NCBI GenBank assembly: GCA_963782615.1
Contig: CAWAKM010000007.1
Location: 1,432 to 65,431 of the forward strand
Source of the DNA: an uncultured Thermoleophilia bacterium
Lineage (GTDB): Bacteria; Actinomycetota; Thermoleophilia; Gaiellales; Gaiellaceae
Length of the DNA: 64,000 nucleotides
Direction of reading: 5' to 3'
A program made the position numbers and the translations under genes. Shown in pieces: positions 15,710-34,114 of this stretch; position 1 is the stretch's first letter; every line of letters starts with the position of its first letter. A model generated the notes under the pieces. That model was not told the origin of the DNA. It worked only from the letters and a program-made list of their open reading frames with translations, and made no database searches.

Positions 15710-15776
15710 CGTTCGATCCTACGTCGACTACGTCGGGGCGGTGGCGCATCCATGGTGGGTCGATCCGGGGCTCGGG

Positions 15777-16433
15777 TCAGACCACCCCGCCCGCCCTGGC
15801 GATCGCGTCGAGCGCGATCCGCTTTCCCGACTCGATGTGGGTGCGAATTGCCTGCTGGGCCGCCGGCAGATCGACGGCCTCGAAGGCCTCGACGATCGCC
15901 CGGTGCTCACGTGCCAGATACTCGCCGACTTCGAGCCTGCCGCCGCGGATCACTTGCATCATCAGGTTCACCGAGAGTCCGCGGTAGGTGCGGGACAGCA
16001 TCTCGTTGCCCGCCAGGTCGATCTGAAACTCGTGGAACGCGGCGTTTGCGGCGTCCCATTCCTCCTGTGAGATTGCCACCTCCGACTCCTCCATCAGCAC
16101 CCGAAACCGGACCAGTGGCGTGGGATCGACGACACCAACGGTGCGCTCGGCCGCATGTAGCTCGAGCGCCAGCCGAACGTCGTATCCGTCGCCCACTGTC
16201 GAGGGTGTCACGGGAGTCACGTAGTACCCGCGTCGCGCTTTGACCGAGAGGAGCCCTTCAGAGACGAGCCGGGTCAGAGCATGGTGCACAGGGCTCCGGG
16301 AAACGCCGAGCTCGGTCGCGAGCTCGTGGAGGCTCAGCTTCGCCCCGGGCCCGGGATGGCGCCGCAGCACTCGCTGCCGAATCGTCTCGTATACCTGCTC
16401 GTTGAGGTTCGTCCGGGGAAGCGTCGTCGCCAT
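15777..16433 (-). CDS. GntR-family (FCD) transcriptional regulator
   Basis: LATELGVSRSPVHHALTRLVSEGL, AAFHE, EHRAIVEA. Confidence 0.9.
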   Translation of the reverse strand: MATTLPRTNLNEQVYETIRQRVLRRHPGPGAKLSLHELATELGVSRSPVHHALTRLVSEGLLSVKARRGYYVTPVTPSTVGDGYDVRLALELHAAERTVGVVDPTPLVRFRVLMEESEVAISQEEWDAANAAFHEFQIDLAGNEMLSRTYRGLSVNLMMQVIRGGRLEVGEYLAREHRAIVEAFEAVDLPAAQQAIRTHIESGKRIALDAIARAGGVV

Positions 16434-16491
16434 GGGACAGATGTAACATGACAGCGCCCGCAGTCTGCAACCCCCGGCTACGCTGCGGCCG

Positions 16492-17130
16492 ATGAGGGTC
16501 TCCGTCCGTCTGTTTGCCGGCCTGCGTGAGCTCGCAGGTACCCGCGCCACTGAGATCGAGCTGCCGACGGGCTCGACGGCCGACGCCGTCTGGCCCGCGC
16601 TCGACCTCGGTGCGGAGCCACCAGGACTCCTGCTTGCGGTCAACAGGAGCTATGCCGCGCGCGACACCATGCTTGTCGACGGCGACGAGGTTGCGCTGAT
16701 TCCGCCGGTGTCCGGGGGAGCGTTCCGGCTCTCGGAGCACGCGCTGTCGCTGGACGATGCCGTCCGTGAGGTCGCGTCGGACGACGGGGGTGCGATCGCC
16801 ACGTTCACGGGCACAACGCGCGCTCACTCCCGCGGCCGCGAGGTCGTGCGGCTCGAGTACGAGGCCTACGAGGGGATGGCCGAGGCGGAGATGGAGCGAA
16901 TCGCTTCGGAGCTGCAGGAGCGGCACTCGTTGATCGCGGTCGCGATCCACCATCGGGTCGGGATCGTCGAGATCGGCGAGGCCAGCGTCGTGATCGCGGT
17001 GTCCGCGGCTCATAGAGGCGACGCCCTCGCGGCCTGCGCCGAGGCGATCGACACGCTCAAGGGTACGGTGCCGCTGTGGAAGAAGGAGATCTACGTCGGC
17101 GGCGAGGAATGGATCGGGCAGGGGTCGTGA
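16492..17130 (+). CDS. MoaD-MoaE fusion (molybdopterin synthase)
   Basis: VRLFAGLRE...LIPPVSGG (MoaD) continuing into LEYEAYEGMA, HRGDAL, PLWKKE (MoaE). Confidence 0.92.
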   Translation: MRVSVRLFAGLRELAGTRATEIELPTGSTADAVWPALDLGAEPPGLLLAVNRSYAARDTMLVDGDEVALIPPVSGGAFRLSEHALSLDDAVREVASDDGGAIATFTGTTRAHSRGREVVRLEYEAYEGMAEAEMERIASELQERHSLIAVAIHHRVGIVEIGEASVVIAVSAAHRGDALAACAEAIDTLKGTVPLWKKEIYVGGEEWIGQGS

Positions 17131-17792
17131 GCGGCAGGTTCCCGGAGAGTCACTCGGAGGAGCCGCCACCGCAGCCCCCGCGTTCGGGGTGGGGGCGCCT
17201 GATTGCGCCGATTGTGGTCGCCGGGGTGGTGCTGCTGAAGATCGCCGGGTCGTTGAAGTTTCTCGGGATCTTCGTCTCGGTCGGCGGCTACGCCCTCATC
17301 TGGGGCTGGCGCTTCGCCGTCGGCTTCGTCCTCCTCATCCTCGTGCACGAGCTCGGGCACTACGTCGAGGCGCGCCGGCAGGGACTGAGTCCCCAGTTGC
17401 CCGTCTTCATCCCGTTCCTCGGCGCCTACGTCGCGCTCCGCGGCCAGCCGTTCGACCCTTGGCGGAACGCGCTCGTCTCGGTTGCGGGACCGGTCGCAGG
17501 CGGGATCGGTGCGCTGGCCTGTCTCGTCTACGGCAACGCCGTGGGCTCAGACCTGCTGCTGGCCCTCGCCTACGCCGGCTTCTTCCTGAATCTCGTCAAT
17601 CTCATCCCGATCGGGATCCTGGACGGCGGTCAAATCCTCCGGTCGTGGCGGGTTCTCCGGGCCGGCGGCGGGCGACCGAGCTCGGCCGAGGCGCGCCGGC
17701 TTGGCGGCATCGTCGGCGCTTACTCCGTGGCACTTGCGGCGGGACTGGCGCTCGGCATGGTGGTAGCGCACATTCCGCAGAACCGCCTGTGA
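17127..17792 (+). CDS. Site-2 (M50) membrane metalloprotease
   Basis: HELGH, AGP, NLIPIGILDGG; GTG start overlaps the moaE stop. Confidence 0.88.
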   Translation: MSGRFPESHSEEPPPQPPRSGWGRLIAPIVVAGVVLLKIAGSLKFLGIFVSVGGYALIWGWRFAVGFVLLILVHELGHYVEARRQGLSPQLPVFIPFLGAYVALRGQPFDPWRNALVSVAGPVAGGIGALACLVYGNAVGSDLLLALAYAGFFLNLVNLIPIGILDGGQILRSWRVLRAGGGRPSSAEARRLGGIVGAYSVALAAGLALGMVVAHIPQNRL

Positions 17793-18475
17793 ACGGCCGC
17801 GAGCTGGATCGGAGGCTGCTGCGGCGCCGCGACGCAACGCTCGCGAGCGACGTCGCGTTGATCGCCTCGGAGTTCCTCGCGGGCTTCCAGAAGGTGCAGG
17901 AGATCGATCGGCCGGCCGTCTCGATCTTCGGCTCGGCGCGGGTGGACGATCAGGCGTCGTCCTACCACCGTGCTCGTGAGACCGCGGGCCTCTTCGCACA
18001 GGCCGGGTTTGCCGTCGTCACGGGTGGAGGACCCGGGGTGATGGAGGCGGCAAATCTTGGCTGCCAGGAGGCCGGCGGGCTCTCGGTCGGGTTCAACATC
18101 GACCTTCCGCACGAGCAGGGTCTCAATCCGTACTGCGATCTCTCGTTGACCTTCAAGCATTTCTACGCTCGCAAGACGATGTTCGTGAAGGCGGCCGAGG
18201 GCTTCGTCATCTTCCCGGGCGGCTTCGGCACGCTGGACGAGCTGTTCGAGTCGTTGACGTTGATCCAGACGGGCAAGATCGGCAGTTTCCCGGTGGTGCT
18301 CTGCGACACCGCGTACTGGGCCCCCATGCTCGACTGGATCCGCGTGCGCATGCTCGAAGACGGTCTCGTCTCGGTGTCCGATCTCGACCTCGTGCAGGTC
18401 ACCGACGTGCCGGCCGAAGCCGTCGAGTGCGTGATCTCCCGATATGACGCGCGGCTCGCCGAAGGGTCGGCGTGA
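17789..18475 (+). CDS. LOG-family Rossmann-fold protein (TIGR00730-like)
   Basis: SIFGSAR, TGGGPGVMEAAN, FPGGFGTLDELFE; GTGA overlap with the upstream gene. Confidence 0.9.
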   Translation: MNGRELDRRLLRRRDATLASDVALIASEFLAGFQKVQEIDRPAVSIFGSARVDDQASSYHRARETAGLFAQAGFAVVTGGGPGVMEAANLGCQEAGGLSVGFNIDLPHEQGLNPYCDLSLTFKHFYARKTMFVKAAEGFVIFPGGFGTLDELFESLTLIQTGKIGSFPVVLCDTAYWAPMLDWIRVRMLEDGLVSVSDLDLVQVTDVPAEAVECVISRYDARLAEGSA

Positions 18476-19275
18476 TCGACGACGCGGTCACCGCGATCCG
18501 GGAGCGGTCGTCCCTCGTCCCCAAGGCCACCGTCGTGCTGGGGTCTGGCCTCGGGGGGTTCGCAGACAGGGTCGAGGCCGACGTCGAGATCCCATACGGA
18601 GAGATCCCCGGCTGGCCCGTTTCGACGGCGCTCGGGCACGCCGGCACCCTGCTGCTCGGAACGGTCGCAGGGGTGCCGCTCGCCGTCATGAAGGGGCGCG
18701 CCCACCTCTACGAGGGTCATCCTGCGGACAGGGTCGTTTTCGGAGTGCGCGTGCTCGGGCGGCTCGGGGCGGGTGCGCTCGTCGTCACAAACGCTTGTGG
18801 AGGTGTCCGCGAGGACCTCGCGCCCGGAGACCTCGTGCTCGTTTCGGATCATCTCAATCTCCAGGGAGCCTCGCCGCTCGTGGGGCCGAACGACGACACA
18901 TTGGGGCCGCGCTTCCCGGACATGAGCTCTGCGTACGATCCGGCGCTCCGGACGATCGCCCACGAGGCCGCCGCCCGCCTCGGCCAATCCCTCGCCGAGG
19001 GCGTCTACGCGGCCTGGCTCGGCCCGGCGTTCGAGACGCCTGCGGAGATCCGGATGATCCGCGCCCTCGGCGGCGACCTCGTCGGAATGTCGACGGTGCC
19101 CGAGGTGCTGGCCGCACGCCACATGGGCATCCGGTGCCTCGCCATCTCGTGTGTGACCAATATGGCGGCGGGAATCCTTCCCGAGCCGATCGATGCCGAG
19201 CACGTGCTCGTCGTCGGTGCTCAGGCCCAGGATCGGCTAACGGCGCTGCTCGCCGAGATCCTGCCCGCGCTGTAG
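18472..19275 (+). CDS. Purine nucleoside phosphorylase (trimeric type)
   Basis: VLGSGLG, GHAG, GRAHLYEG, GPAFETPAE, GMSTVPE, VTNMAAG. Confidence 0.93.
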   Translation: MIDDAVTAIRERSSLVPKATVVLGSGLGGFADRVEADVEIPYGEIPGWPVSTALGHAGTLLLGTVAGVPLAVMKGRAHLYEGHPADRVVFGVRVLGRLGAGALVVTNACGGVREDLAPGDLVLVSDHLNLQGASPLVGPNDDTLGPRFPDMSSAYDPALRTIAHEAAARLGQSLAEGVYAAWLGPAFETPAEIRMIRALGGDLVGMSTVPEVLAARHMGIRCLAISCVTNMAAGILPEPIDAEHVLVVGAQAQDRLTALLAEILPAL

Positions 19276-19304
19276 TCCCGCCCTCCTCTGCCTACACTTC
19301 GGGC

Positions 19305-20618
19305 GTGACGCCATCGCTTCGGACCCTTCCGTCCGTTGACCGGGTGCTTGCGGATCCGCGGCTTGCCGGCGCGTCGCGGGCGCTCGCGCTCCCGGCGGCG
19401 CGGACTGTGCTCGACCGTGCCCGTGACGAGATCCGGGCGGGCCGGGATCCGGGCGACGTCGTCGAGGCGACGCTTGCGGAGGTCGCGGCGGCGGGCAGGC
19501 CGTCGTTGCGGCGCGTGCTCAACGCAACCGGTGTGCTGATTCACACCAACCTCGGACGGGCTCCACTCGCGCAGTCGGCGCTCGACCGAGTCGTCGAGGT
19601 GGGCGGCGGCTACTCGAACCTCGAGTACGACCTCGACTCGGGCGTCCGGGGCTCGCGCCAGGATCATCTCGCCGGTCTGCTTTGCCGGATCACGGGCGCC
19701 GAGGCATCGCTCGTCGTCAACAACAACGCTGCGGCGGTGATGCTCGCCCTAGCCGCTCTCGCCGAAGGCCGTGAGGTGCTCGTCTCGCGTGGCGAGCTGA
19801 TCGAGATCGGTGACGGCTTCAGGATCCCGGACGTGCTCGCCCGCTCGGGAGCGCGACTGGTCGAGGTCGGCACGACCAACCGCACCCGGATCGCCGACTA
19901 CGAGCGCGCGATCGGGCCGGAGACCGCGGTCGTCCTGCGGGTTCACCAATCCAACTTCCGCGTCGTCGGCTTCACGGAGCAACCCGAGCTCTCCGAGCTC
20001 GCTCGGATGGCGAGACGAGCCGGGCTTCCTCTCGTCGACGATCTCGGCTCGGGCGCTCTCTCGGTGATCGGAGACGAGTCGACGGCCGCAGCGAGTCTCA
20101 CCGCGGGATCCGATCTCGCGTGCTTCTCGGGTGACAAGCTGCTGGGCGGCCCGCAGGCGGGGATCCTCGTCGGTCGTGCCGACTTGATCGACCGTCTGCG
20201 CCGGCACCCACTCCAACGCGCGCTGCGTGCGGACAAGCTGACGCTTGCGGCTCTCGAAGGCACACTCACTCTCGCCCTCGACCCCGAGCGCGCCCGCAGG
20301 GAGATCCCGGTGTTGCGGATGTTCGCCGAGTCGATCGCCGCCGTGAGGGAACGGGCCGAGCGCCTGGCGAGGCTGGTCGGCGGCGAGGTCGAGGAGACGG
20401 TCGCCCGTGTCGGCGGCGGAGCGCTTCCGCTGGCGGAGCTGCCGAGCTTTGCATGTGCCCTCGACGCGGTGTTGTTCGATTCTCTGCGAGCCGGCGATCC
20501 ACCCGTCGTCGGGATCGTTCGTGACGGCCTGCTGCTACTGGACGTTCGAGCTCTGGCAGACGGCGAGATCGACGAGGTGGCGCGCGCCGTCGCGAAGGCG
20601 CGCTCGCGAACGGGCTGA
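19305..20618 (+). CDS. selA: L-seryl-tRNA(Sec) selenium transferase
   Basis: VLNATGVLIHTNLGRA, VVNNNAAAV, VEVGTTNRT, FSGDKLLGGPQAG (PLP Lys); GTG start at 19305. Confidence 0.96.
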   Translation: MTPSLRTLPSVDRVLADPRLAGASRALALPAARTVLDRARDEIRAGRDPGDVVEATLAEVAAAGRPSLRRVLNATGVLIHTNLGRAPLAQSALDRVVEVGGGYSNLEYDLDSGVRGSRQDHLAGLLCRITGAEASLVVNNNAAAVMLALAALAEGREVLVSRGELIEIGDGFRIPDVLARSGARLVEVGTTNRTRIADYERAIGPETAVVLRVHQSNFRVVGFTEQPELSELARMARRAGLPLVDDLGSGALSVIGDESTAAASLTAGSDLACFSGDKLLGGPQAGILVGRADLIDRLRRHPLQRALRADKLTLAALEGTLTLALDPERARREIPVLRMFAESIAAVRERAERLARLVGGEVEETVARVGGGALPLAELPSFACALDAVLFDSLRAGDPPVVGIVRDGLLLLDVRALADGEIDEVARAVAKARSRTG

Positions 20619-20771
20619 GCACCCTCTTGTGTTGAATCGACACAAAGCCGGTGGATCTCGCGACCGTTCTCGGCGGAGGGCGACTTCTCGACTGGATCAG
20701 CGCCGGCGCTCGGCCAGTGTGCGTCAATCGGAGGCAGACGTTGCGACAGGAGCTCGTCTCGAATCAACACG

Positions 20772-22533
20772 ATGCCGGCGGGCCGCGGCGTGGCGCTGAC
20801 GGTCGGCACTGCCGGGCACATCGATCACGGCAAGACGGCCCTCGTGCGTGCGTTGACGGGCAGGGACACCGACCGACTGCCCGAGGAGCAGCGGCGCGGA
20901 ATCTCGATCGACCTCGGCTACGCCCCGCTCGAGCTGCCCGACGGGAGAAGCCTCTCGCTCATCGACGTCCCGGGCCACGAGCGATTCGTGCGCGCGATGG
21001 TGGCCGGCGCCACGGGAATCGACCTGTTCCTGCTCGTGATCGATGCATCCGAAGGCTCCCGTCCCCAGACGCACGAGCACCTAGCGATCCTGGGTCTCCT
21101 CGGTGTCGAGGCGGGAGTCGTTGCGGTGACGAAGTCCGACCTTGTCGACGAGGAGACGCTCGAGATCGCGCTCGAGGAGGGGCGCGAGCTCGTCCCAGGA
21201 GCCGAGGCAGTGGCCGTCAGCGCGAGGACAGGAGCGGGCCTCGACGCGCTGCGGGCGGCTCTCGCCCGGGTTGCCGACAGGGTGCCGGTGCGTGACGCGA
21301 ATGGGCCGGCGCGTCTCTACATCGATCGCGTGTTCACGCTCCGCGGCATCGGCACGGTCGTCACCGGAACGCTCTGGGCGGGGACGATCGCCGAGGGCGA
21401 CACGCTGAGTGTGGCGCCACGCGGCGGGGAGGTTCGCGTGCGCTCGGTGCAGGTGCACGACCAGGGGGTGCCACATGCAATCGCCGGCGAACGGGTCGCG
21501 CTCGGTCTGCCGGGCATCGACCGTCGCGAGCTGCACCGGGGAGACGCACTCGTGACCCCCGGCGCGTTTCCTGTTTCCTACCGACTCGACGTCGAGCTCG
21601 AGGAGCTCGTCCCGATCGAACAGCGACGGCGCGTGTCCGTGCATCACGGCACCGCGCGAATCCCGGGCGTGGTCGCCCGCGTCGGTGAGCGCACCGCACA
21701 ACTTCGGCTGTCGATGCCCGTCGTTGCGGCGCGTGGGGATCGCGTCGTCTTGCGGGGGGAGACCACCCTCGGCGGCGCTACCGTCCTCGATCCTGCTCCG
21801 CCGCGACGGCTCGAGCCGAAGCGGCTCGCACTCCTCGAAACCGGCGACCCTGCCTCGATCATCACGGCGACCGTGACGGCCCCCGTCACCGTCGAGGCCC
21901 TGGCCGCCCGAGCGCTGCTCACTCCAGCCGAGCTCGAGGAGGGGCTGCGCATCGTGCCTCGGGCCGGCAGCTGGATCTTCTCGCAGGAGTGGCTCGACGA
22001 GACGGCGAGCGTCGCGGTCGAGCGGCTCCGGGTCAGAGGTGAGGAGTCTCCGCTCGATCCCGGTCTCCCGCTTGGGGCGCTCCTCCCGGCTGAGCCGTGG
22101 GCGCACGCGATTCTGCCGCTGCTGCCGATCGAACGACGCGGAGGAATGGCATACCTTCCCGGCGTCGCCGCGTCGCTCGGTGCGCGGGCCGAGGCGGCAG
22201 ATGCGCTCTGTCAGCGAGCTCGAAGTAGCCGGGCTGGCGGCGGTGAAGGTGAGCGATGGTGAGCTCGGACGGTATCTGGAGACGGATGGCCGGCTCGTTC
22301 GGCTCGGGGATGGTTTCGTGGTTTCGGCCGATGCCTACCGGCGCGCGCGCGATCTCGTCGTGACCGAGTGCCGGGTGGCAGGCGAGATCGCCCTTGCCCG
22401 CTTTCGCGACCTCGCGGGCGTCGGTCGCCGCGATGCCCAGCTTCTGCTCGAGCGGCTCGACCAGGACGGCGTCACGCGCCGCCTCGGCGACCGGCGGGTC
22501 CTGCGTCGGGCCGGGCGCGACGAGCCGTCGTAG
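20772..22533 (+). CDS. selB: Sec-specific elongation factor SelB, with a +1 frameshift near 22209
   Basis: GTAGHIDHGKT, RGISID, DVPGHERF; the last winged-helix domains (RFRDLAGVGRRDAQLLLERLD) are in the +1 frame. Confidence 0.9.
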
Positions 22534-22569
22534 AGGCGAGACGGAGCGAGGCCTGCAGTCCTCTCAGCC

Positions 22570-23123
22570 TCACGGTCGCGGCCCCCACTCGGGCTCGTCG
22601 TCGATGCCCGACGGCCTCGGCGACGCGGTTGATGTAGTTGAAGTACGAGATCACCTGGATCGCATCATGGATCGCGGGATCGTCCCAGCCGTGTGCCCGG
22701 AGAACGCTTACATCCGCCGGTTCCGACGGTTGCCGGAGCCGCGGTCAGCTTGACGGCGAAGTCGCACAGAGCGCGCAGACGAGGCTCGAGATCTGCCTGC
22801 CGGTAGTCGTGTGCCGCGTGTTGCGCGAGCTCCTCGTCTGCGCCCTCTGCACGGAGGTCGTTTGCGTGCGAGATCGTTCAGTAGTAACAGTCGTTGTGCC
22901 GCGAGGTGACGGTGGCGAGCAATTCCCGCTCCGCACGGGTCAGTCCTGACGGCCCGAACATGATCGCCTTGTACATCTCCATCGACCGCTTCAGGACGCC
23001 CGGACGAAGGCTCATCGCCTTGACGATGTTGAAGACCTTGCCCGCACGCGCGATGGCGGCGTCGTACTCCTCTTTCAGCGGTCCCGAGGCGTCGTCCGGC
23101 TCGATCAAGCGGATGTGCGCCAT
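22570..23123 (-). CDS. AhpD/CMD-family peroxidase-like selenoprotein (CYYU), two apparent 1-nt insertions
   Basis: RELLATVTSRHNDCYY-TGA-TISHANDLR reads on in frame; C-terminal AIQVISYFNYINRVAEAVG recovered after removing extra bases at ~22721 and ~22608, giving 183 aa. Confidence 0.8.
22833..22872 (-). promoter_or_regulatory. Candidate bacterial SECIS hairpin
   Basis: CGACCUC-CGUGCA-GAGGGCG upper stem-loop, loop starts 25 nt after UGA with G in position 2; CUCG/CGAG lower stem. Confidence 0.55.
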
Positions 23124-23231
23124 CGCGCGATCCTAACCGGCCGTCGCGGATTCGAGGTCGTCGTCTGCGGGCCGTCGTCCGTCCTGGCCGTCATTGTGGC
23201 AGTACCTACGTCCCCTGCAGAGAGGCACGTC

Positions 23232-23579
23232 GTGAGCGGCATCGCTTGGCTTATCTATCTGGCGATCATCGTCGCCGTCATTGCCGCGTGGTGGATGGTC
23301 TTCACCAAGGCGGGCGAGGCGGGCTGGAAGTCGATCATCCCCATCTACAACCTCATCGTGCTGATGAAGATCGTCGGCCGTGAGTGGTGGTGGGTGATTC
23401 TCCTGATCATCCCGATCGTCGGCTTCATCGTCTGGATCATCGTGGCCCTGGACCTCGCCAAGAGCTTCGGTCGCGGCACGGGATTCGGCATCGGGCTTGC
23501 CTTCCTGACACCGATCTTCGGGCTCATCCTCGGGTTCGGCAGCGACACCTATAGAAAGGCTGCTGCGGCGCCCGCCTAG
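23232..23579 (+). CDS. DUF5684-like small membrane protein
   Basis: WMVFTKAGEAGWKSIIPIYN, LAKSFGRGTGFGIGL; GTG start after AGAGG. Confidence 0.8.
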   Translation: MSGIAWLIYLAIIVAVIAAWWMVFTKAGEAGWKSIIPIYNLIVLMKIVGREWWWVILLIIPIVGFIVWIIVALDLAKSFGRGTGFGIGLAFLTPIFGLILGFGSDTYRKAAAAPA

Positions 23580-23623
23580 GGCTGTGGTCGGGAGAGCCCC
23601 CGGAGGGCGCGACCGCGTGGGAG

Positions 23624-23663
23624 CAGGTCCGAGGACGGGCACGGGAGCGCGTCCTCGGACCTG
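23624..23663. terminator. 14-bp inverted repeat between convergent genes
   Basis: CAGGTCCGAGGACG / CGTCCTCGGACCTG. Confidence 0.5.
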
Positions 23664-23701
23664 GGCATTGGACCGACCTACGCGGTCGGAGCACTGGTGG
23701 T

Positions 23702-23974
23702 CTACTCGCCGCCCGAATCGGGATCCGGGTCGGGCAGAGGAGCAACAAAGAACGTTCCGCCTCGAAGTGCGAAGATGATGCAGCTGAGCCGGCCAGGGAA
23801 CGACTGCTGGCTGCTCGGCTTCAGGGTATGCCAACCCCGAAGGCACTTGGCAGCGTTTCTCAGGTTGTCGCCCGGTGCCGCTGTCGCGCTGTTCGCGCCG
23901 ACGAGGCCGACGACGAGAGTGAGGACGGTTACGAGACCGAGCTTGGCTCGACCTCGAGTGTGGTGCAACCGCAT
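23702..23974 (-). CDS. Small secreted two-Cys protein
   Basis: RBS GAAGGGGG, signal peptide ending ATA-A, AAKCLRGWHTL...FPGRLSCIIFALRGG. Confidence 0.65.
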   Translation of the reverse strand: MRLHHTRGRAKLGLVTVLTLVVGLVGANSATAAPGDNLRNAAKCLRGWHTLKPSSQQSFPGRLSCIIFALRGGTFFVAPLPDPDPDSGGE

Positions 23975-24111
23975 ATGGAGCCCCCTTCATAGCGTGGAAC
24001 CGACGACCTCCATATCGGCTCTCCGGGCTTCCTGGGCGATGACACGGTCGAGGGACGTGTGCGGAGGAGTTGCCCACACCTCGGACCCGGGAGAACGGTA
24101 GCCTCCTCCGC

Positions 24112-24204
24112 GGAGCGGCACGGGCCCGGTGGCCCAGCAGGTCTTCAAAACCTGTGCGGTGTGGTAACCCCACGCTCGGTCGGTTCGACTCCGGCGCCGC
24201 TCCG
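24112..24204 (+). tRNA. selC: tRNA-Sec(TCA)
   Basis: 8-bp acceptor GGAGCGGC/GCCGCTCC, GCAGGT-CTTCAAA-ACCTGT anticodon arm, long variable arm, GGTTCGACTCC, G discriminator. Confidence 0.95.
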
Positions 24205-24314
24205 TCAAGCCGTTTTTGGCCTGTTGAAGCCGTTTTTCGGCTACCAGATCGATGCTTAGCCTGCCTCCGGTTCGTCCGCTCAGATCCGCTGGAATCCGCT
24301 GGTTTCTGGCCCGC

Positions 24315-24338
24315 ACTGGACCGCAGACTGGACCGCAG
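24315..24338 (+). repeat. Tandem 12-mer ACTGGACCGCAG x2 (arm-type-site-like)
   Basis: Perfect tandem copies 24315-24326 and 24327-24338, with a degenerate CTGGCCCGC just before. Confidence 0.6.
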
Positions 24339-24491
24339 CGTAAAAAGACAGGAATCACTGCGGGCCGCTTGAGCAGTCCACCCCGAGGCCGCCGCGCCAG
24401 TGTCCGCGGAATGTCACCCGAGCGGACGCTCTGCCTAAAAGGCTTTCGAGTCGCTCGGCTAAACGAACCTGCCAGGCTGCGCATCTAAGTA

Positions 24492-24989
24492 GTGATGACG
24501 CCGCAGCACGAACTGGCTGAGACGGGCTCGATCGGCGACATCGAGACGATCTACCGCGAGCAATACTCGCGATACCTTCGCTTCGCCGTCGCCAACCTTG
24601 GCGACGTCGAGCGCGGCCGCGATGCAGTCCACGAAGCCTTCGTAAGCGCGATCAAGTCAGTCGGCGACTTTCGCGGCCAGGCACGCCTCGAATCGTGGCT
24701 GTGGCGGATTCTCTTGAACGTGTGCATTGCCGAGAAGAGACGTCGAGTCGTGCCGATCGAGGACGCGCGCCTTCAGGCCGACTTCGAAGACCCCGAATGG
24801 CCCGAGATCCGCGCCGCGATCGCCTCTCTTCCGGAGAGGCAGAGGACGGTTCTCTTTCTTCGTCACTACGCCGACCTCGACTACGAGCAGATCGGCGCCG
24901 TACTCGGCATCGCCCGGGGAACAGTGGCGGCAACCCTGAACACAGCCCACACAAGGCTACGGGCCGTACTTGGAGAGGTGAAGAGGTGA
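24492..24989 (+). CDS. ECF sigma factor
   Basis: DAVHEAF, WLWRILLN (region 2); LPERQRTVLFLRHYADLDYEQIGAVLGIARGTV (region 4). Confidence 0.9.
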   Translation: MMTPQHELAETGSIGDIETIYREQYSRYLRFAVANLGDVERGRDAVHEAFVSAIKSVGDFRGQARLESWLWRILLNVCIAEKRRRVVPIEDARLQADFEDPEWPEIRAAIASLPERQRTVLFLRHYADLDYEQIGAVLGIARGTVAATLNTAHTRLRAVLGEVKR

Positions 24990-26260
24990 GTGACTACCTG
25001 ACCTGCGTCCTAGACGAGCTCGTCCCGACCTTCGCCGACGAGGGTGGCGACTGGGAACGCGTCGTCTCCGACGCTGGTGCCGAGCCTCCGACGACGACCG
25101 CGCAGCGGTCGCGCGTCGACACGGCCGCATCATCCGTGGCGCCCCGTCGAAGACATGGCCGGTGGGCGACGCGGTGGCTCACCCGTCCTCGGCTCGTCGC
25201 CATCGCCGTCACCGCTCTGCTAGCCGTGCTCCTCGTCACACCGGCGCTCGGTCTCGGTGATCGCCTCCTGAGTCTGATCCGGAGCACGCCCACCCCGCTC
25301 GACGTGCAGACACCTGCGTGGTCGCCCGACGGACGGAAGCTCGCGTTCGTGAGCCGACGCGACGGCAACTCGGAGATCTACGTGATCAACACTGACGGCA
25401 GCGGGCAGGAGAACCTGACCCAGCACCCGGCGAGGGACAGCCATCCGAGCTGGTCGCGCGACGGACGGAAGCTCGCCTTCGTCAGCCGACGCGACGGCAA
25501 CTCCGAGATCTACGTGATGAACGCCGACGGGAGCGGGCTGCGCAACGTGACACGGGCTCCGTCGAACGATCTCCGTCCGGCCTGGTCGCCTGATGGGCGT
25601 GCGATTGCGTTTGTCAAGATGATCCTGAAGAAGTGCCCGCGCCCACGCGACAAGACTCCGTGCAACAACGACGTCTACGAGCCGAACCTCTATGTCGTGA
25701 ACGGCGACGGGAGCGGGCTGCGGCGACTGACAACACAGTGGGCGTCTCTGGTCAATCCAAGCTGGTCGGCGGACGGGAAGACGATCCGGTTCGGGCGTTA
25801 TCTCGTGCAGGCCGACGGCAGCGGGCAGACAGAGCTGCCTAGGAACGTCCCGTTCGCAGGAGCGTGGTCGCCCGACGGGCAGCGGATCGCCGTCGTGTCG
25901 TTCCCCCACAGCCCCCGGGACCCAACCGTCCCCGGACTTTGGGTCATGAACGCCGACGGAAGCAACCGTCGGCAGCTGACGCGCTACGCCGTCGGGACCG
26001 ATCCCGCGTGGTCCCCGGACGGTCGCCGGATCGCCTTCCGAAGGTTCGACCGCCGGACGTCGGCGGGGAACTCAGACCTCTTTGTCGTGAACGCCGACGG
26101 GAGCGGGCTGCGACGGCTGACACACCATACGGAGAACGTGCAGCGTTGGTTCGCGTGGTCACCCGACGGGCGCACGATCGCCTTCCTGCACAACCGGGAG
26201 GTGTACATCGTGAAAGCCGACGGAAGCGATGAACGGAGGCTCACGCAGCTCAACGACTAG
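24986..26260 (+). CDS. Membrane-anchored TolB-like (PD40 repeat) beta-propeller, probable ECF partner
   Basis: GTG overlaps the sigma stop; short cytoplasmic N-terminus, one TM, repeated PAWSPDGRKLAFVS..DGNSEIYV.N.DGS. Confidence 0.85.
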   Translation: MSDYLTCVLDELVPTFADEGGDWERVVSDAGAEPPTTTAQRSRVDTAASSVAPRRRHGRWATRWLTRPRLVAIAVTALLAVLLVTPALGLGDRLLSLIRSTPTPLDVQTPAWSPDGRKLAFVSRRDGNSEIYVINTDGSGQENLTQHPARDSHPSWSRDGRKLAFVSRRDGNSEIYVMNADGSGLRNVTRAPSNDLRPAWSPDGRAIAFVKMILKKCPRPRDKTPCNNDVYEPNLYVVNGDGSGLRRLTTQWASLVNPSWSADGKTIRFGRYLVQADGSGQTELPRNVPFAGAWSPDGQRIAVVSFPHSPRDPTVPGLWVMNADGSNRRQLTRYAVGTDPAWSPDGRRIAFRRFDRRTSAGNSDLFVVNADGSGLRRLTHHTENVQRWFAWSPDGRTIAFLHNREVYIVKADGSDERRLTQLND

Positions 26261-26483
26261 TTGAGGGCGAAGCAACCCAGCGGGGTGGGCCAGGCAACAG
26301 CCGTGAGGGCGGGAAACCTCCTGTTGCCACTTGCTACACGTAGTCAACCGGTGACATCGGGCGCGGGGCCCTGCTCGCCTGCGCCAGACCGTATGGAGTG
26401 CCCGGCGCCTCTCTCGTAAGTTGGCGCGGGTTGCCGTCGGGATGGGCCCGGCGGTAGAGCCGCAATTACGGGAGGCGCCGGTT

Positions 26484-27555
26484 ATGAGCGAAGGTAGCTG
26501 GGTCGGGCTTGATGTGCACGCGCGGTCGGTGGTGGCGGGCGTGATCGATGTGGGGAGTGGTGAGGTGCGGTCGCTGCGGGTGCCGGCCGGGTCTGACGCC
26601 ACGGTGGCGTGGTTGAAGACGCTGTCGGCGCCGGTTCGGGTCGTGTATGAGGCGGGGCCGACTGGGTACGGGCTTGCGCGTGCGTGTGCCCGGGCGGGGA
26701 TCAGCTGTGTTGTCGCGGCTCCGTCGCGGATCCGGCCGGCGGCCGATCGGGTCAAGACCGACCGGCGGGACGCTGAGCGGCTAGCGAGGCTGCTTCGGTT
26801 GGGTGAGGTCACTCCGGTGCGGGTGCCGGGGCCGGAGGAGGAGGCCGCGCGTGATCTGGTCAGGGCGCGGGAGGATGCCCGTGGCGATCTGATGCGGGCT
26901 CGGCACCGGCTCTCGAAGCTGCTGCTTCGTCATGGCGCGGTGTACGACGCGACCGCGTGGACGCGGGCGCACGACGCGTGGCTTCGCCAGCAGCGGTTCC
27001 AGAGCGGCCCGCTCGCGATCGTGTTCGACGAGTGCTACGGCCGCATGGTCGACGCGAAGGCCAGGAGGGACGCGCTCGACGTGGCGATCTCCGAGCTCGC
27101 CGCGAGTGAGCCGTACGTTGGTGTCGTCGAGCGGCTCGTCTGTCTCCGCGGTGTCTCCACGCTGACGGCGTTCGCGTTGACCGTTGAGCTCGGCGACTGG
27201 AACCGGTTTCGCCCCGAGTCGCTCGGCCCGTTCCTCGGCCTCACCCCGAGCGAGAACTCAAGCGGGGAGCGGCGCCGTCAAGGCGCGATCACCAAGACCG
27301 GCAACGCGACATGCACGTCGGCTCCTGGTCGAGGCCGCCTGGCACCACCGCCGCCCGTCGCGCTTGAGCGTCACGCTGGAACGCAGACGCACAGGCAAGT
27401 CCCTCGCCGTACGAGCCCAAGCGGACCGCAGCGCCCGCCGGCTCCACGGACGCTGGCACGCGCTCGAGGCCCGAGGCAAGCCCCGCTCGATCGTCGTGGT
27501 CGCGGTCGCCCGCGAGCTCGCCGGTCACTGCTGGGCGCTCGCGACGATGGAGTAG
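26484..27555 (+). CDS. IS110-family DEDD recombinase/transposase, +1 frameshift near 27310
   Basis: GLDVH, YEAGPTG, KTDRRDA, GLTPSENSSG...ITKTGN; HARRLLVEAAW and VAVARELAG are in the next frame. Confidence 0.88.
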
Positions 27556-27604
27556 GTCGCACCAGCAACGGCTCGGCGAGGAGAGCGCACCGGCGCAACG
27601 ACGC

Positions 27605-27730
27605 GAGGAGCGACCCGAGAGAACACTGGGAGCAGCCCCATCGGCGGCCACGCTCGACGCCAGAGATCGGCACCGCTCCTCATCTCGCATACCCGGTCAT
27701 GCGGCACCAACCCGCGCATATGAGTCGCGA
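27605..27730 (+). ncRNA. Candidate bridge/seek RNA of the IS (two internal guide loops)
   Basis: Stem GAGGAGCG/CGCTCCTC encloses the target-matching guides; a TCGC/GCGA stem encloses the donor-matching guides (see findings); true RNA ends unknown. Confidence 0.7.
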
Positions 27731-27977
27731 CACAGACGTCGACGACAGCCGGTGCGCACTCCCCGCCGAGACCCGAACCCCGCAAAACAGCGAGGTGAAC
27801 AACCCCTGCCCAGTTGACAGGCCGCACTCCATATGAGAGTTCGGGAATGTCACCCGAGCGCCAAGTGAGCCTCCTTGTAACAGACTGTTACAAGGACTCC
27901 CCTCGCCGCTGGCCGAGATCGGGAACGCTCGTCTGCCCGAGCGTGCGGGAATGCCCCTGCGCGACCGGCTGCCGCCG

Positions 27978-28265
27978 CTAGCGCGTCAGCGACCCGACGT
28001 CGTCGAGGTAGTCCATCGAAACGGACGCCAGGTCGACACCGTCACGCACCATCGCCTCTTCCATCGCCGGATTCGTGGCGTCCGCCTCCGCCACCTCGCG
28101 GGAGTCGTACGTCTCTGCGAGAACAACGACGTTCGGATCGTCCTGCCCGCGCCAGATGCGCGCGGAACGTACGTGACTTCCCAGCGGCGAGGCGAAGAAC
28201 TGCTCATAGCTTTGCCGCCACGACTCATAATCGGCTACCCGGCAGCGAACAAGAATGGTCGTCAT
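27978..28265 (-). CDS. Small dimeric alpha-beta-barrel (cyclase/ABM-like) protein
   Basis: MTTILVRCRVADYESWR, IWRGQDDPNVVVL, AMEEAM..GV pattern; RBS GAGGAGG. Confidence 0.7.
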   Translation of the reverse strand: MTTILVRCRVADYESWRQSYEQFFASPLGSHVRSARIWRGQDDPNVVVLAETYDSREVAEADATNPAMEEAMVRDGVDLASVSMDYLDDVGSLTR

Positions 28266-28763
28266 GTCGCCTCCTCGACTAGGTTCGCGACACCATACGA
28301 CGGAGCGAATGGCGACACAAGCGCCGCCTGCGCGAGCGTACTTACACCCGATCGGCGAGGTTCGGTGATTCCTGATCGAGGAAGCCCGTCAGACGGAGGA
28401 CACGACGGAGGATCGCCGTATCCTGGATCTTCGGCGGTAGGCGGCTCTCGATCGCCGTGCGTTCAGCCCACTCCCGTACCTGTTGGCGCAAGTTCTCGTC
28501 TACAGCCGTGTCTCTTATGTTGACCTAGAGTGGCTTGTGTTACGCCGCGTCGCGTTTCCGTTGCTCGCGGTAGCTCCTGATCAGCGCGAGTGATCTCGGG
28601 CCGTAGCGGTAGGTGATGGAGCCGCCTGCTCCTGGCTGGCGTTCGATTGCGATGAAGCCATTGCGTTGGAGATGGGCAAGGTCGGATTCGCGGAACATGA
28701 TGTCGGCGTCCTGAGCGGCGCGTTAGGGGGCGTGGGGGCGTCGAAGCTTGACAAGTCTGAGCA

Positions 28764-28797
28764 TATCGATTATCAATATCCGTATTGTTTATCGATA
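28764..28797. promoter_or_regulatory. Imperfect 15-4-15 inverted repeat (putative XRE operator), with TTGACA at 28748
   Basis: TATCGATTATCAATA / TATTGTTTATCGATA, 13/15 complementary, AT-rich. Confidence 0.55.
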
Positions 28798-28811
28798 CGT
28801 TAGGAGTAGCC

Positions 28812-29411
28812 GTGGAAAATGGATCGTTCGACAGGTGGTTGCAGCGGTTGCGAGTGACCGCGACGATCGTCTACATCGTCGCGCTCTGCCTCGCCGTCGC
28901 AGTGCTGGTCATCGCCGTCATCCCCCACTCGCCAGTCACCACCACGTTGCCCGCCAAGGACGTGGCCGGGCTCGACCAAGTCAGCGGCTTGGCCTCCGGG
29001 ATCACCGTCGACCCTGCGGGCACGATCGCCGTCGAGATCGCCGAGCCGTCGACCGCGCAGCGGTTGCTGTACCTCGTCGTCGTGCTGCCCGGACTTGCCC
29101 TCGTCGCACTGATCGCCCGGCGGATGGCCAAGCTGCTTGGTGACGCGCTCGCGAGCGACCCGTTCACCGTCCAGACCGTCCGAGCGCTCACTGCCCTGGC
29201 CAAGGTCACCGCGATCGGCGGAATCGGCGTGTGGGCGATGAGCTACCTGGCTACCTGGGTGCTCTCGGCAACCGTCCTCGACACGGCCGGCGTCACTCGG
29301 CCACACGAGGCCCCGCTCGGCTGGCTCGCCGTTGCGCTCATCCTCGCCGCGTTCGGCCAACTCCTCGCCCGCGGAGTCGCCATGAGAGCTGAACTCGACA
29401 CGGTCATCTAG
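28812..29411 (+). CDS. DUF2975-like membrane protein
   Basis: Four TMs, DPFTVQTVRALTALA, GVAMRAELDTVI; AGGAG RBS before GTG at 28812. Confidence 0.8.
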   Translation: MENGSFDRWLQRLRVTATIVYIVALCLAVAVLVIAVIPHSPVTTTLPAKDVAGLDQVSGLASGITVDPAGTIAVEIAEPSTAQRLLYLVVVLPGLALVALIARRMAKLLGDALASDPFTVQTVRALTALAKVTAIGGIGVWAMSYLATWVLSATVLDTAGVTRPHEAPLGWLAVALILAAFGQLLARGVAMRAELDTVI

Positions 29412-29674
29412 TGACCGAACCTGCCGACCACGGCATCGAAGTGCACCTCGACAAGCTCCTCGCAGAGCGAGGCATCACCCTGGTCGAGCTCTCCACCCAG
29501 GTCGGCGTCACCGTCGCCAACCTCTCAATCCTCAAGAACGGTCACGCCCGCGCCGTCCGCTTCAGCACCCTCACTGCCATATGTGACGCCCTCGACTGCA
29601 ACCCCGGACAACTCCTCAGCCGGGCACGTCCTCCAGACGTTGACGCTGCGTCCTCAAGCTCGCGCCCGGCTTAG
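29411..29674 (+). CDS. XRE/Cro-C1 regulator (YozG-like), usual DUF2975 partner
   Basis: HLDKLLAERGITLVELS..VGVTVANLSILKNGHARAVRFSTL..IC..LDCNPG. Confidence 0.9.
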   Translation: MTEPADHGIEVHLDKLLAERGITLVELSTQVGVTVANLSILKNGHARAVRFSTLTAICDALDCNPGQLLSRARPPDVDAASSSSRPA

Positions 29675-29926
29675 CCCGCAAATGCTCGCGCAACCAGCCG
29701 AAGGAACTCGGCTTCGCCAGCGCGCTCTCGCCTGACATCGCTCGGAGGGCCAGCCGCGCTGAGGAGCGTTTCGAGGGACACGCCGCCATCATCCTCCACG
29801 ATCCACCTCTCGGTTGGCGCAAGCATTCCGGCGGAGCGCCCATGACGGGCTTCAGCCGTAGACACAGGCCGGCAGTTAAGGGAGGATCGCCGCAATGACT
29901 ATGACCTCACCGCCGCGAGTTCTCTT

Positions 29927-30784
29927 GTGAGGTCGGCGCTTCGTGGTTTCGCACTCGTCGCGATCGCTGCGGCCATCGTGCTCACGGCCGCGGTGGCAGC
30001 CGCGTCCGGGCGAAGCGTGTCCCAGATGACGCTTTCGGTCAGCCCTGCCAAGCCTGCATTAAGCTCGATAGCGACGGTGACGATCCGAGGCATCGCCGAC
30101 GAGACGGCCATGCCGGCGGTCGTGGCCGTCTCGGGCTCCGTGTGTCCGGCTCGGGTCCCGTCGCTTTCTAATGCATTCTGGTCAGAAGATTCCAGCCTCA
30201 CGCTCGGTGCATTCACGCGCAAGGTCAGGGTGTTCATCCAAACGAAGACCATGCGGCGGTTCTGTGCGTACCTCCAGCCGGCGGTGCAGGGGGTGAACGA
30301 CGGTGACCCCCCGGAGATCTCGCCCGGCGCACCGCTCGTTCGAGCCGAGGTCGCGCTTCCTCAGGCTGCCGCTGGTCCGCTCCGCGGCGTTCCGGTGTCC
30401 GGGGTCAGCGGGGGGAACCGGGACGGCCCCGGCCCGACGCTCGTGTTAGACCGCACCGGCCGCCGGATCGTGATGGTGCGAACGACCTGCGGCGGCAGCG
30501 CCCTGCACCCTCCATCTCTCGGCAAGGAGTTCATCGGCAAGCGGTTCAGCGCGCGGGTTTCTCTGCCGCTGACGAGAACCATCCGCTGGAGCGGGTTCGT
30601 CACCCCGGACAACTCGCGCAACTACGACGCTCCGGTGCCCGTCGCGTGGACGAAGCCCACACGGTTCACGTTGAACGTGAAGGTGATCGTGAAGGATGGC
30701 CTGGCGAGGGCCCTCGTCGGCACGGGCGCACTCGCGAGCCCCGGTCTGCCGTGCCCGAAGGTTCAACGCTACGTCTTCCCCTGA
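29927..30784 (+). CDS. Hypothetical secreted protein
   Basis: Signal peptide (AAA-SG); beta-rich composition with several Cys. Confidence 0.6.
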   Translation: MRSALRGFALVAIAAAIVLTAAVAAASGRSVSQMTLSVSPAKPALSSIATVTIRGIADETAMPAVVAVSGSVCPARVPSLSNAFWSEDSSLTLGAFTRKVRVFIQTKTMRRFCAYLQPAVQGVNDGDPPEISPGAPLVRAEVALPQAAAGPLRGVPVSGVSGGNRDGPGPTLVLDRTGRRIVMVRTTCGGSALHPPSLGKEFIGKRFSARVSLPLTRTIRWSGFVTPDNSRNYDAPVPVAWTKPTRFTLNVKVIVKDGLARALVGTGALASPGLPCPKVQRYVFP

Positions 30785-30979
30785 ACCGCTACGTCGTCGG
30801 CTCTGGACTAGTTTGCGCTAACTAAGTAGTTGGTTCGGCCAGAACCAGCCGCCCCAGCATCCTCTCGCGTGACCGCTGTCGGGGTGAGAGCGATCCTCAG
30901 CGGACTATCGCAAACACTGCCGCACATCGGCTCGCCATTGGTCGGAATCGACCGTCTCAAGCCGTTCTCGGCGGAATCA

Positions 30980-31060
30980 CAGCAGGTCTTCTAAACCTGT
31001 GCGGTGTGGTAACCCCACGCTCGGTCGGTTCGACTCCGGCGCCGCTCCGTCAAGCCGTTT
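30980..31060 (+). repeat. attR-like 3' copy of selC (loop CTTCTAA instead of CTTCAAA)
   Basis: Matches 24135-24215 except one base; lacks the 5' acceptor strand and D-arm. Confidence 0.9.
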
Positions 31061-34067: not shown

Positions 34068-34114
34068 AGCTTCCACGGTTACGCTCAGCGGCGTCCCGCC
34101 GTAGCCTCAGCTCC

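What the first reader, a model, noticed from the sequence alone, without database searches (positions are those of the whole stretch)
22570..23123. Cryptic AhpD/CMD-family selenoprotein (CxxU) beside selB
Seen: the 81-aa ORF stops at TGA exactly where the second Cys of the CxxC motif belongs (NDCYY-TGA-TISH). The frame continues with family-typical sequence, a SECIS-like hairpin follows (22833-22872), and removing two single bases yields an intact 183-aa protein. Established: AhpD-like selenoproteins are known, but they are routinely mis-annotated as two fragments. Inference: this is the client of the adjacent selA/selB/selC machinery.
Basis: partly seen in the sequence, partly recalled or inferred. 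Interest (0 to 1): 0.62.

Follow-up and report, generated by a model that had tools for sequence, protein, structure and literature searches.

The report
AhpD-like selenoprotein gene, assembly-broken
This is an ordinary member of a selenoprotein family known since 2005: a small AhpD-like redox enzyme whose internal TGA encodes selenocysteine. The two frameshifts in it, and a third in the neighbouring selB gene, are almost certainly single-base errors of this assembly, not real mutations.

Summary
The minus-strand gene 23123..22570 is a peroxidase-related AhpD/CMD-family gene (TIGR01926). Its in-frame TGA (22880-22878) sits at the second Cys of C-x-x-C-x-x-x-H.

- Twelve same-genus orthologs are intact single-frame genes with the same C-x-x-TGA. 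Cys paralogs and solved structures have Cys at that position.
- An invariant small hairpin (22860..22841, GU in the loop) follows the TGA. It includes a fixed rare CGT codon.
- selA, selB, tRNA-Sec and selD are all present.

The window carries two extra bases in this gene (22716, 22607) and a third in selB (22215). An independent public assembly contig, 99.85% identical over 17.1 kb, differs by exactly these three indels. It encodes an intact 183-aa selenoprotein and a 586-aa SelB.

The window's contig also has single-base insertions in other conserved genes. These include the single-copy glutamate racemase gene murI, hit twice, with the protein sequence conserved downstream of each insertion. 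FdhA (Sec) and a second CxxU paralog are intact in this genome.

The frameshifts are therefore most likely assembly artefacts.

The gene is one client of the Sec machinery, not the only one. It is a known family that gene callers routinely truncate to 81 aa. Low interest.

The parts
22570..23123 (-). AhpD-like / peroxidase-related (TIGR01926, COG2128) selenoprotein gene. It encodes 183 aa once the two spurious bases are removed. ATG at 23123, Sec codon 82, final stop TGA at 22572-22570.
   Evidence: frames. (TIGR01926 168.3 bits, positions 3-178/178). (after removing 22607 and 22716 the gene is identical, base for base, to the intact gene of the sister contig, P0122).
22878..22880 (-). In-frame TGA read as selenocysteine (U82), at the second position of the C79-x-x-U82-x-x-x-H86 redox motif (motif spans 22866-22889).
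   Evidence: all 12 orthologs have C-x-x-TGA and the Cys paralogs have CxxC; it aligns to the second Cys of CVYC in PDB 6k40.
22841..22860 (-). SECIS-like hairpin CGACCUC[CGUGCA]GAGGGCG, with GU in the apical loop, starting 21 nt after the U of UGA.
   Evidence: 6 base pairs invariant in 13 sequences; lowest third-position entropy of the gene (0.14 against a mean of 0.84), with CGT in 13 of 13. CGT is only 10.6% of Arg codons in this genome. No covariation, so this is inferred rather than shown.
22716..22716 (.). Extra base (G on the + strand, C on the gene strand) that shifts the gene from frame 1 to frame 2. Most likely an assembly error.
   Evidence: absent from all 12 orthologs; absent from the 99.85%-identical ENA contig.
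22607..22607 (.). Extra base in a C/G run (CC to CCC on the + strand) that shifts the gene from frame 2 to frame 3. Most likely an assembly error.
20772..22533 (+). selB, the selenocysteine-specific elongation factor. It lies convergent with the selenoprotein gene. In this assembly an extra base at 22215 splits it, putting the SECIS-binding winged-helix end in another frame.
   Evidence: GTP_EFTU and Beta-barrel_SelB in ORF 20772-22262; SelB-wing_3 in ORF 22039-22533. (TIGR00475 341.9 bits). (one extra base against 9 orthologs). (the sister contig has an intact 586-aa SelB). (otherwise 4 nt differences, 3 of them synonymous).
19407..20618 (+). selA, L-seryl-tRNA(Sec) selenium transferase. Intact.
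   Evidence: TIGR00474 514.6 bits, 1-454/455. (403-aa SelA called in the sister contig).
24112..24204 (+). selC, tRNA-Sec (anticodon UCA).
   Evidence: ARAGORN. (Rfam RF01852, 64.5 bits against a gathering score of 47).

Best explanation
The locus is one intact gene for a 183-residue AhpD-like, peroxidase-related thiol/selenol oxidoreductase (TIGR01926 / COG2128; the 'AhpD-like' CxxU selenoprotein family).

How it works. Codon 82, UGA, is decoded as selenocysteine. SelB carrying Sec-tRNA(Sec) is recruited by a small hairpin 21-40 nt downstream of the UGA. SelB, SelA and tRNA-Sec are encoded within 2 kb; SelD lies elsewhere in the genome. Sec82 replaces the second Cys of the family's C-x-x-C-x-x-x-H centre. 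It forms a selenenylsulfide/selenol redox couple with Cys79, assisted by His86. The likely substrates are peroxides or an oxidised partner peroxiredoxin.

The frameshifts. The two frameshifts downstream of the UGA, and the one in the 3' end of the convergent selB, are single-base insertion errors of this metagenome-assembled contig. They are not mutations of the organism.

Shown: family membership; UGA/Cys correspondence; conservation of the UGA and of the downstream coding sequence; presence of the Sec machinery; absence of all three insertions from a near-identical independent assembly; the same kind of insertion in essential genes elsewhere on the contig.

Inferred: SECIS function of the hairpin, actual Sec insertion, the catalytic roles of C79/U82/H86, and the substrate.
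For: Selenoprotein identity.
- Family: Pfam CMD and TIGR01926 score 119 bits even unrepaired, and 168.3 bits full length when repaired. The nearest solved structures are AhpD-like or peroxidase-related proteins, E about 1e-29, with CVYC..H aligned to CYYU..H.
- Orthologs: 12 same-genus genomes have full-length single-frame orthologs (63-80% identity), each with exactly one in-frame TGA at C-x-x-TGA. An ortholog from another family of the order also has CFY-TGA. Cys paralogs have CxxC.
- Nucleotide constraint after the UGA: the hairpin is invariant in 13 sequences, has the lowest synonymous variability in the gene, and carries a fixed rare CGT codon. A distant ortholog has a different hairpin with GU in the loop at a similar distance.
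- Machinery: selA, selB, tRNA-Sec and selD. The gene lies within 4 kb of selB in 9 of 9 genus members where both coordinates are listed.

Frameshifts are artefacts.
- The ENA contig ERZ25039502:contig_60912 is 99.85% identical over 17.1 kb (22 substitutions). Its only 3 indels against the window are the extra bases at 22215, 22607 and 22716. It encodes intact P0122 (183 aa) and P0123 (SelB, 586 aa).
- With the extra bases removed, the gene is identical to the sister's. selB then differs by 3 synonymous changes and 1 non-synonymous change. There is only 1 unique change at otherwise invariant residues, so no sign of decay.
- A census against relative G004 found 9 single-base insertions in about 42.7k aligned aa of contig C7, against 1 in about 68.8k aa on other contigs (binomial p = 0.0012). 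All are insertions. They include two in the single-copy murI and one each in xseA, a 2-oxoacid dehydrogenase E1 gene, alkA and marR, each followed by a conserved protein sequence.
- Sec-type FdhA and a second CxxU paralog are intact in the same genome, so a working SelB is expected.
Against: - The artefact reading is therefore indirect.
- The sister contig is a different strain or assembly: 22 substitutions in 17 kb, and an IS110 plus different island content. Strain-specific real mutations are not excluded.
- The three insertions cluster within 510 bp in two functionally linked genes, and they are the only indels in 17.1 kb against the sister. That is more clustered than a uniform error rate predicts, although similar clusters occur at murI and alkA.
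- Two of the three insertions are not simple homopolymer extensions.
- The hairpin is short (4 + 2 bp with a mismatch), shows no covariation, is not more stable than shuffles, and matches no Rfam family.
- Sec insertion has not been shown biochemically for this subfamily in Gaiellales.
Confidence: 0.82

Rival explanations
1. Real, very recent decay. In this particular strain selB and the adjacent selenoprotein gene have each been inactivated by genuine single-base insertions, a first step towards loss of selenocysteine decoding. The close sister strain still has both genes intact.
For: The three indels are the only ones in 17.1 kb against the sister contig, and all fall in the 3' ends of selB and its neighbouring selenoprotein gene. 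The ortholog is dispensable in the genus: several members with selB lack it. Loss of selenoproteins is a known evolutionary trend (PMC1794560, title and abstract).
Against: - selA, selD, tRNA-Sec, Sec-type FdhA and a second CxxU gene are all intact.
- There is no amino-acid decay: the gene has 0 substitutions against the sister, and selB has 3 synonymous to 1 non-synonymous.
- Three indels to nine substitutions in the locus is far above natural ratios, and all are insertions, whereas bacteria are biased towards deletions (general knowledge).
- The same lesion type hits the single-copy essential murI twice, and other housekeeping genes on the same contig.
Confidence: 0.1
2. The TGA is a true stop. 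The organism makes only an 81-aa N-terminal fragment, or nothing, and the downstream sequence is a relic of a former Cys-type gene.
For: Gene callers and public databases annotate 81-aa products for this gene and its relatives.
Against: The downstream 101 codons are conserved in frame in 12 orthologs at 63-80% identity with no further stop. The TGA is invariant at the catalytic Cys position. The full Sec machinery is adjacent. The 81-aa fragment lacks half of the CMD fold, including the catalytic second residue and the His.
Confidence: 0.03
3. Programmed +1 ribosomal frameshifting restores the frame at the two sites, and in selB.
For: All three shifts go in the same direction.
Against: None of the 12 orthologs, the 9 selB orthologs or the near-identical sister contig has the extra bases. 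There is no conserved slippery motif. Identical lesions are scattered in unrelated genes.
Confidence: 0.01

Closest known systems
AhpD-like selenoprotein family (COG2128 / TIGR01926 'peroxidase-related enzyme', CxxU). Zhang, Fomenko & Gladyshev 2005, Sargasso Sea (PMC1088965); 'AhpD-like 1' in the GOS analysis, Zhang & Gladyshev 2008 (PMC2398784).
   Same: Same domain family: TIGR01926 matched full length above the cut-off. Same CxxU redox motif, with Sec at the second Cys. Widespread Cys homologs. Bacterial SECIS-type hairpin downstream of the UGA. Truncated by gene callers.
   Different: Described mainly from marine metagenomes; here it is in soil Gaiellaceae (Actinomycetota). In this genus it is fixed next to selB, convergent with it. 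This particular copy appears frameshifted in its assembly.
Solved Cys-type relatives: PDB 6k40 (alkyl hydroperoxide reductase AhpD), 2pfx, 3c1l, 2oyo, 2prr (uncharacterised peroxidase-related / antioxidant defence proteins).
   Same: E = 1e-25 to 1e-29 over nearly the full length. The C-x-x-C-x-x-x-H motif is aligned.
   Different: They have Cys where this protein has Sec. Their physiological substrates are mostly unknown.
Mycobacterium tuberculosis AhpD (TIGR00777), the AhpC-reducing alkylhydroperoxidase.
   Same: CMD fold core (TIGR00778 domain 43 bits against a cut-off of 27.8) and the CxxC..H catalytic arrangement. By established knowledge of AhpD, the second Cys is the reactive one.
   Different: Not a member: TIGR00777 scores 19.1 bits against a cut-off of 191.95. 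It has a different length and subfamily.
NF041238 AhpD_rel_CFYUT alkylhydroperoxidase-related (seleno)protein.
   Same: Another CMD-family group with Sec in the CxxU position; partial similarity (76 bits).
   Different: Below the cut-off of 175. That family is a protein of about 357 aa with an extra N-terminal part.

Membership tests
AhpD-like selenoprotein family (TIGR01926 / COG2128, CxxU) | Full-length match to the peroxidase-related enzyme model above its curated cut-off | tested here: met
   168.3 bits against a cut-off of 81.8, positions 3-178/178 (repaired or sister sequence); 119.4 bits even for the unrepaired frame-1 reading.
AhpD-like selenoprotein family (TIGR01926 / COG2128, CxxU) | In-frame UGA at the second Cys of C-x-x-C-x-x-x-H, with Cys in homologs at that column | tested here: met
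   (12 orthologs with C-x-x-TGA; paralogs CDYC, CRYC, CPYC). (6k40 has CVYCAVSH against CYYUTISH here).
AhpD-like selenoprotein family (TIGR01926 / COG2128, CxxU) | Coding conservation continues downstream of the UGA in the same frame in orthologs | tested here: met
   12 single-frame orthologs covering residues 1-182 with one TGA only; intact in the 99.85%-identical sister contig.
AhpD-like selenoprotein family (TIGR01926 / COG2128, CxxU) | Bacterial SECIS: a hairpin shortly downstream of the UGA with a conserved G in the apical loop | tested here: inconclusive
   A hairpin 21-40 nt after the UGA with loop CGUGCA is invariant in 13 sequences, with suppressed synonymous variation. But there is no covariation, low stability and no Rfam model hit. 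bSECISearch was not available.
AhpD-like selenoprotein family (TIGR01926 / COG2128, CxxU) | The genome encodes the Sec-decoding trait (selA, selB, selC, selD) | tested here: met
   selB is split by one extra base in this assembly but is intact in the sister contig.
AhpD-like selenoprotein family (TIGR01926 / COG2128, CxxU) | Selenium is actually incorporated into the protein | not testable with these tools
   Needs 75Se labelling or mass spectrometry.
AhpD proper (TIGR00777, M. tuberculosis type) | Match to the AhpD subfamily model above its cut-off | tested here: not met
   19.1 bits against a cut-off of 191.95.
NF041238 AhpD_rel_CFYUT (seleno)protein | Match above the cut-off and the ~357-aa architecture | tested here: not met
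   76.3 bits against a cut-off of 175. Only the C-terminal half of the model is matched, and this protein is 183 aa.

The most novel reading that the evidence does not exclude
The three single-base insertions are real. On that reading, this strain has just inactivated SelB (losing its SECIS-binding end) together with the adjacent selenoprotein gene, while selA, selD, tRNA-Sec, Sec-FdhA and a second CxxU gene are still untouched. That would be a snapshot of the first step of loss of selenocysteine decoding, seen against a 99.85%-identical sister strain that retains it.
Probability: 0.1. Interest if true: 0.4.

Novelty: new member of a known kind. Interest (0 to 1): 0.15.

Why it matters
The main value is as an annotation correction.

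- The gene and its relatives are truncated to 81 aa in public databases. 106 of the best 120 protein clusters hit by the fragment are exactly 81 aa. One of these is the entry for the cultured Gaiella occulta. The selenoproteome of Gaiellales is therefore under-reported.
- The tight conserved linkage to selB in this genus, and the presence of the ortholog in a cultured species, make Sec insertion directly testable.
- There is a practical warning. This assembly's contig carries scattered single-base insertions, so apparent pseudogenes on it, including selB, should not be read as biology without checking reads.

Tried and rejected
2. A home-made codon-usage Viterbi frame caller was too insensitive and confused the strands. 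It was dropped in favour of homology-based detection.
3. A nucleotide-gap plus GC3-phase classifier was noisy at 80% identity and missed the known sites. It was dropped.
4. A first, broader tblastn census timed out. It was rerun with stricter ORF filters.
5. The single-sequence fold of the post-UGA region is no better than shuffles. Rfam has no hit for a SECIS here. RNAalifold gives only invariant pairs. The SECIS therefore rests on conservation, not covariation.
6. A genome-wide scan for in-frame TGA flanked by coding signal recovered FdhA and this gene. The other candidates inspected were gene junctions: tadB/tadC-like, ABC binding protein/permease, and E2/lipB. One was a TGA inside an AI-2E-type transporter. 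No new selenoprotein family was found, and the scan missed the C8 paralog, so it is not exhaustive.
7. Searching the ENA sister record for murI was not possible, because the record is not held.
8. The idea of decay of the Sec trait was my leading reading early on. I rejected it after the contig-wide census and the sister-contig comparison.
9. Programmed frameshifting was rejected because no ortholog has the extra bases.

Full report
OBSERVATION

The window is high-GC (about 68%).

On the minus strand an 81-aa ORF (22878..23123) ends in TGA. Read through, it gives ...SRHNDCYY-U-TISHANDLRAEG... and continues to ...KLTAAPATVG. The family-typical sequence then continues in the next frame (DVSVLRAHGWDDPAIHDAIQVISYFNYINRVAEAVG) and then in the third frame (IDDEPEWGPRP*).

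Even unrepaired, the frame-1 reading hits Pfam CMD (3.8e-11) and TIGR01926 'peroxidase-related enzyme' at 119 bits against a cut-off of 81.8. Repaired, it scores 168.3 bits over model positions 3-178/178.

SURROUNDINGS

- selA lies at 19407-20618 (TIGR00474 514.6 bits).
- selB starts at 20772 (TIGR00475 341.9 bits).
- tRNA-Sec lies at 24112-24204 (Rfam 64.5 bits against a gathering score of 47).
- selD is elsewhere in the genome and intact (C5:355528-356442).
The GTPase and beta-barrel domains are in ORF 20772-22262. The C-terminal winged-helix domain (SelB-wing_3) is in another frame, ORF 22039-22533.

IS THE TGA A SEC CODON?

A six-frame search of 41 related genomes found 12 same-genus genomes with a full-length single-frame ortholog (63-80% identity), each containing exactly one TGA.

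- All 12 read C-[HYR]-Y-TGA at the same column. A more distant ortholog from another family of the order reads CFY-TGA. Paralogs without a TGA read CDYC, CRYC or CPYC there.
- Solved relatives (6k40, 2pfx, 3c1l, 2oyo, 2prr; E = 1e-25 to 1e-29) align CVYCAVSH with CYYUTISH.
- The TGA therefore stands exactly at the second Cys of C-x-x-C-x-x-x-H, and the coding sequence is conserved after it.

Downstream of the TGA, the stretch GACGACCTCCGTG..GAGG is invariant in all 13 sequences. RNAalifold folds it as CG-A-CCUC[CGUGCA]GAGG-G-CG, window 22860..22841, beginning 21 nt after the U of UGA.

- Codons 88-94 have the lowest third-position entropy in the gene (0.14 against a mean of 0.84). Arg91 is CGT in 13 of 13, although CGT makes up only 10.6% of Arg codons in this genome.
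- A distant ortholog has a different hairpin with GU in the loop at a similar distance.
- This fits a bacterial SECIS. But there is no covariation, the single-sequence fold is unremarkable (z 0.59), and Rfam has no matching model. I rate the SECIS as inferred.

ARE THE FRAMESHIFTS REAL?

A nucleotide alignment shows that the window has two single extra bases relative to all 12 orthologs. selB has one extra base relative to 9 orthologs. My first reading was possible decay of the Sec trait. Four lines of evidence argue against it.

1. No decay signal. The repaired protein has only one unique change at otherwise invariant positions (D88N), no more than the other orthologs have.

2. Other Sec clients are intact in the same genome.
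   - A formate dehydrogenase alpha subunit reads ...NIDSCNRT-U-HAPSVVGL... (C7:206983), in a single frame to its stop. It matches TIGR01591 at 642 bits, just under the 666.25 cut-off, with the first 49 model positions unmatched.
   - A second CMD-family gene has CPF-U (C8, about 1099072-1099640; TIGR01926 102 bits).

3. The insertions are a property of the contig. I compared 880 kb of relative G004 with this genome by tblastn. I kept only cases where the G004 ORF is continuous and coding-like on both sides of the split.
   - Contig C7 shows 9 single-base insertions in about 42.7k aligned residues. All other contigs together show 1 in about 68.8k residues (binomial p = 0.0012).
   - Every event is an insertion of one base, followed by well-conserved protein sequence.
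   - Besides the Sec locus, the events hit a 2-oxoacid dehydrogenase E1 gene (C7:80903), marR (162806), xseA (166942), alkA (176221) and, twice, murI (180566 and 180888).
   - murI is single-copy in this genome and is split over three frames. Its G004 ortholog scores as glutamate racemase.
   - G004, another MAG, has its own extra bases in fdhA, where this genome is intact.

4. An independent assembly lacks the insertions. The 81-aa fragment is found, identical, on ENA contig ERZ25039502:contig_60912 (340 kb).
   - That contig is 99.85% identical to the window over 17.1 kb (window 14694-24413 and 27849-35224), with 22 substitutions.
   - It differs by exactly three indels, namely the window's extra bases at 22215 (selB), 22607 and 22716.
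   - It encodes an intact 183-aa protein with U82 (P0122) and an intact 586-aa SelB (P0123).
   - With the three bases removed, the window's gene is identical base for base to the sister's. selB then differs by 4 nt, of which 3 are synonymous.

Three indels against nine substitutions in this 2.4-kb locus, all of them insertions and all in conserved genes, is an error signature and not an evolutionary one.

Some caveats remain.
- The sister contig is a distinct strain or assembly.
- The three events are tightly clustered within 510 bp, though similar clusters occur at murI and alkA.

I put about 85% on artefact and about 10% on real, very recent inactivation.

MECHANISM

Inferred from the family: this is an all-alpha CMD/AhpD-fold oxidoreductase whose C79-x-x-U82 pair cycles between selenol/thiol and selenenylsulfide. 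His86 occupies the position of the catalytic His of AhpD-type enzymes. Sec sits at the position of the reactive second Cys; the roles of these residues come from established knowledge of M. tuberculosis AhpD and were not tested here. The likely function is peroxide detoxification, or re-reduction of a peroxiredoxin. The substrate is unknown.

RELATION TO THE SEC MACHINERY

The gene lies within 4 kb of selB in 9 of 9 genus members where both coordinates are listed. The 3' end of selB lies in the 1.5-kb flank in 10 of 12 loci. The linkage is therefore conserved.

It is not the only client: FdhA and a second CxxU paralog are also present. Several genus members have selB but lack this ortholog.

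COMPARISON WITH WHAT IS KNOWN

AhpD-like CxxU selenoproteins (COG2128) were described from the Sargasso Sea in 2005, with 27 sequences (PMC1088965). They ranked among the most abundant prokaryotic selenoprotein families in the GOS data: 'AhpD-like 1', COG2128, CxxU, 299 sequences (PMC2398784).

This gene meets the tested membership criteria of that family. It does not meet those of AhpD proper (TIGR00777, 19 bits against 192) or of NF041238 (76 bits against 175).

The 81-aa fragment hits 3,097 protein clusters. 106 of the best 120 are exactly 81 aa, meaning truncated at the TGA. They include 'carboxymuconolactone decarboxylase family protein [Gaiella occulta]'. Earlier agents of this scan reached the same verdict on look-alike genes in other genomes.

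VERDICT

It is a new member of a known selenoprotein family. The frameshifts here and in selB are most likely assembly errors. Interest is low.

Noticed in passing
Genome contig C7 (window = C7:1432-65431): C7:80903, 162806, 166942, 176221, 180566, 180888: Contig C7 carries an excess of single-base insertions that split conserved genes: 2-oxoacid dehydrogenase E1, marR, xseA, alkA, and the single-copy murI twice. The rate is about 14 times that of the other contigs. Apparent pseudogenes on this contig are suspect.
   Followed up: yes
window 20772-22533 (extra base at 22215): selB is frameshifted in this assembly, which separates its SECIS-binding winged-helix end. It is intact (586 aa) in a 99.85%-identical ENA contig.
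   Followed up: yes
G000 C7:206730-208690 and downstream to about 210560 (outside the window): An intact Sec-type formate dehydrogenase alpha gene (SCNRT-U-HAPSV) is followed by an intact fused NuoE/NuoF-like gene. The ortholog in relative G004 has two extra bases that put its C-terminus out of frame, so that MAG has indel errors too.
   Followed up: partly
G000 C8:1099072-1099640 (outside the window): A second CMD/TIGR01926 gene with a CPF-U-TETH motif, intact. It is preceded by another CMD-like ORF. TGA-containing paralogs of this type occur in at least 8 related genomes.
   Followed up: partly
window 24413-27849, compared with L071:7377-8710: Between the tRNA-Sec region and window ~27849, the sister contig carries an IS110-family transposase where the window has about 3.4 kb of other sequence. 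Synteny with the sister contig also breaks to the left of window 14694.
   Followed up: no
L014 (G014:C2:122324-122870) and L015 (G011:C17:28051-28601): Two other genus MAGs also show this gene split by a frameshift, at different positions (near residue 60 and near residue 99). These are probably further assembly errors.
   Followed up: no
G000 C8:854910 (minus strand, outside the window): An in-frame TGA lies inside a strongly coding AI-2E-type transporter-like ORF (..LATLTRG-TGA-PLAVIMLIIV..). There is no Cys nearby. It is more likely a nonsense error or a TGG-to-TGA change than a Sec codon.
   Followed up: no
window 18444-20618: The 724-aa ORF listed here is a high-GC artefact. The real selA starts at 19407 (403 aa). 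The upstream part overlaps a PNP_UDP_1 gene (18472-19275) in another frame.
   Followed up: yes
window 16492-17130: A MoaD(ThiS)-MoaE fusion gene (molybdopterin synthase) lies 2.3 kb upstream of selA. It may be functionally linked to the molybdopterin-dependent Sec-FdhA.
   Followed up: no
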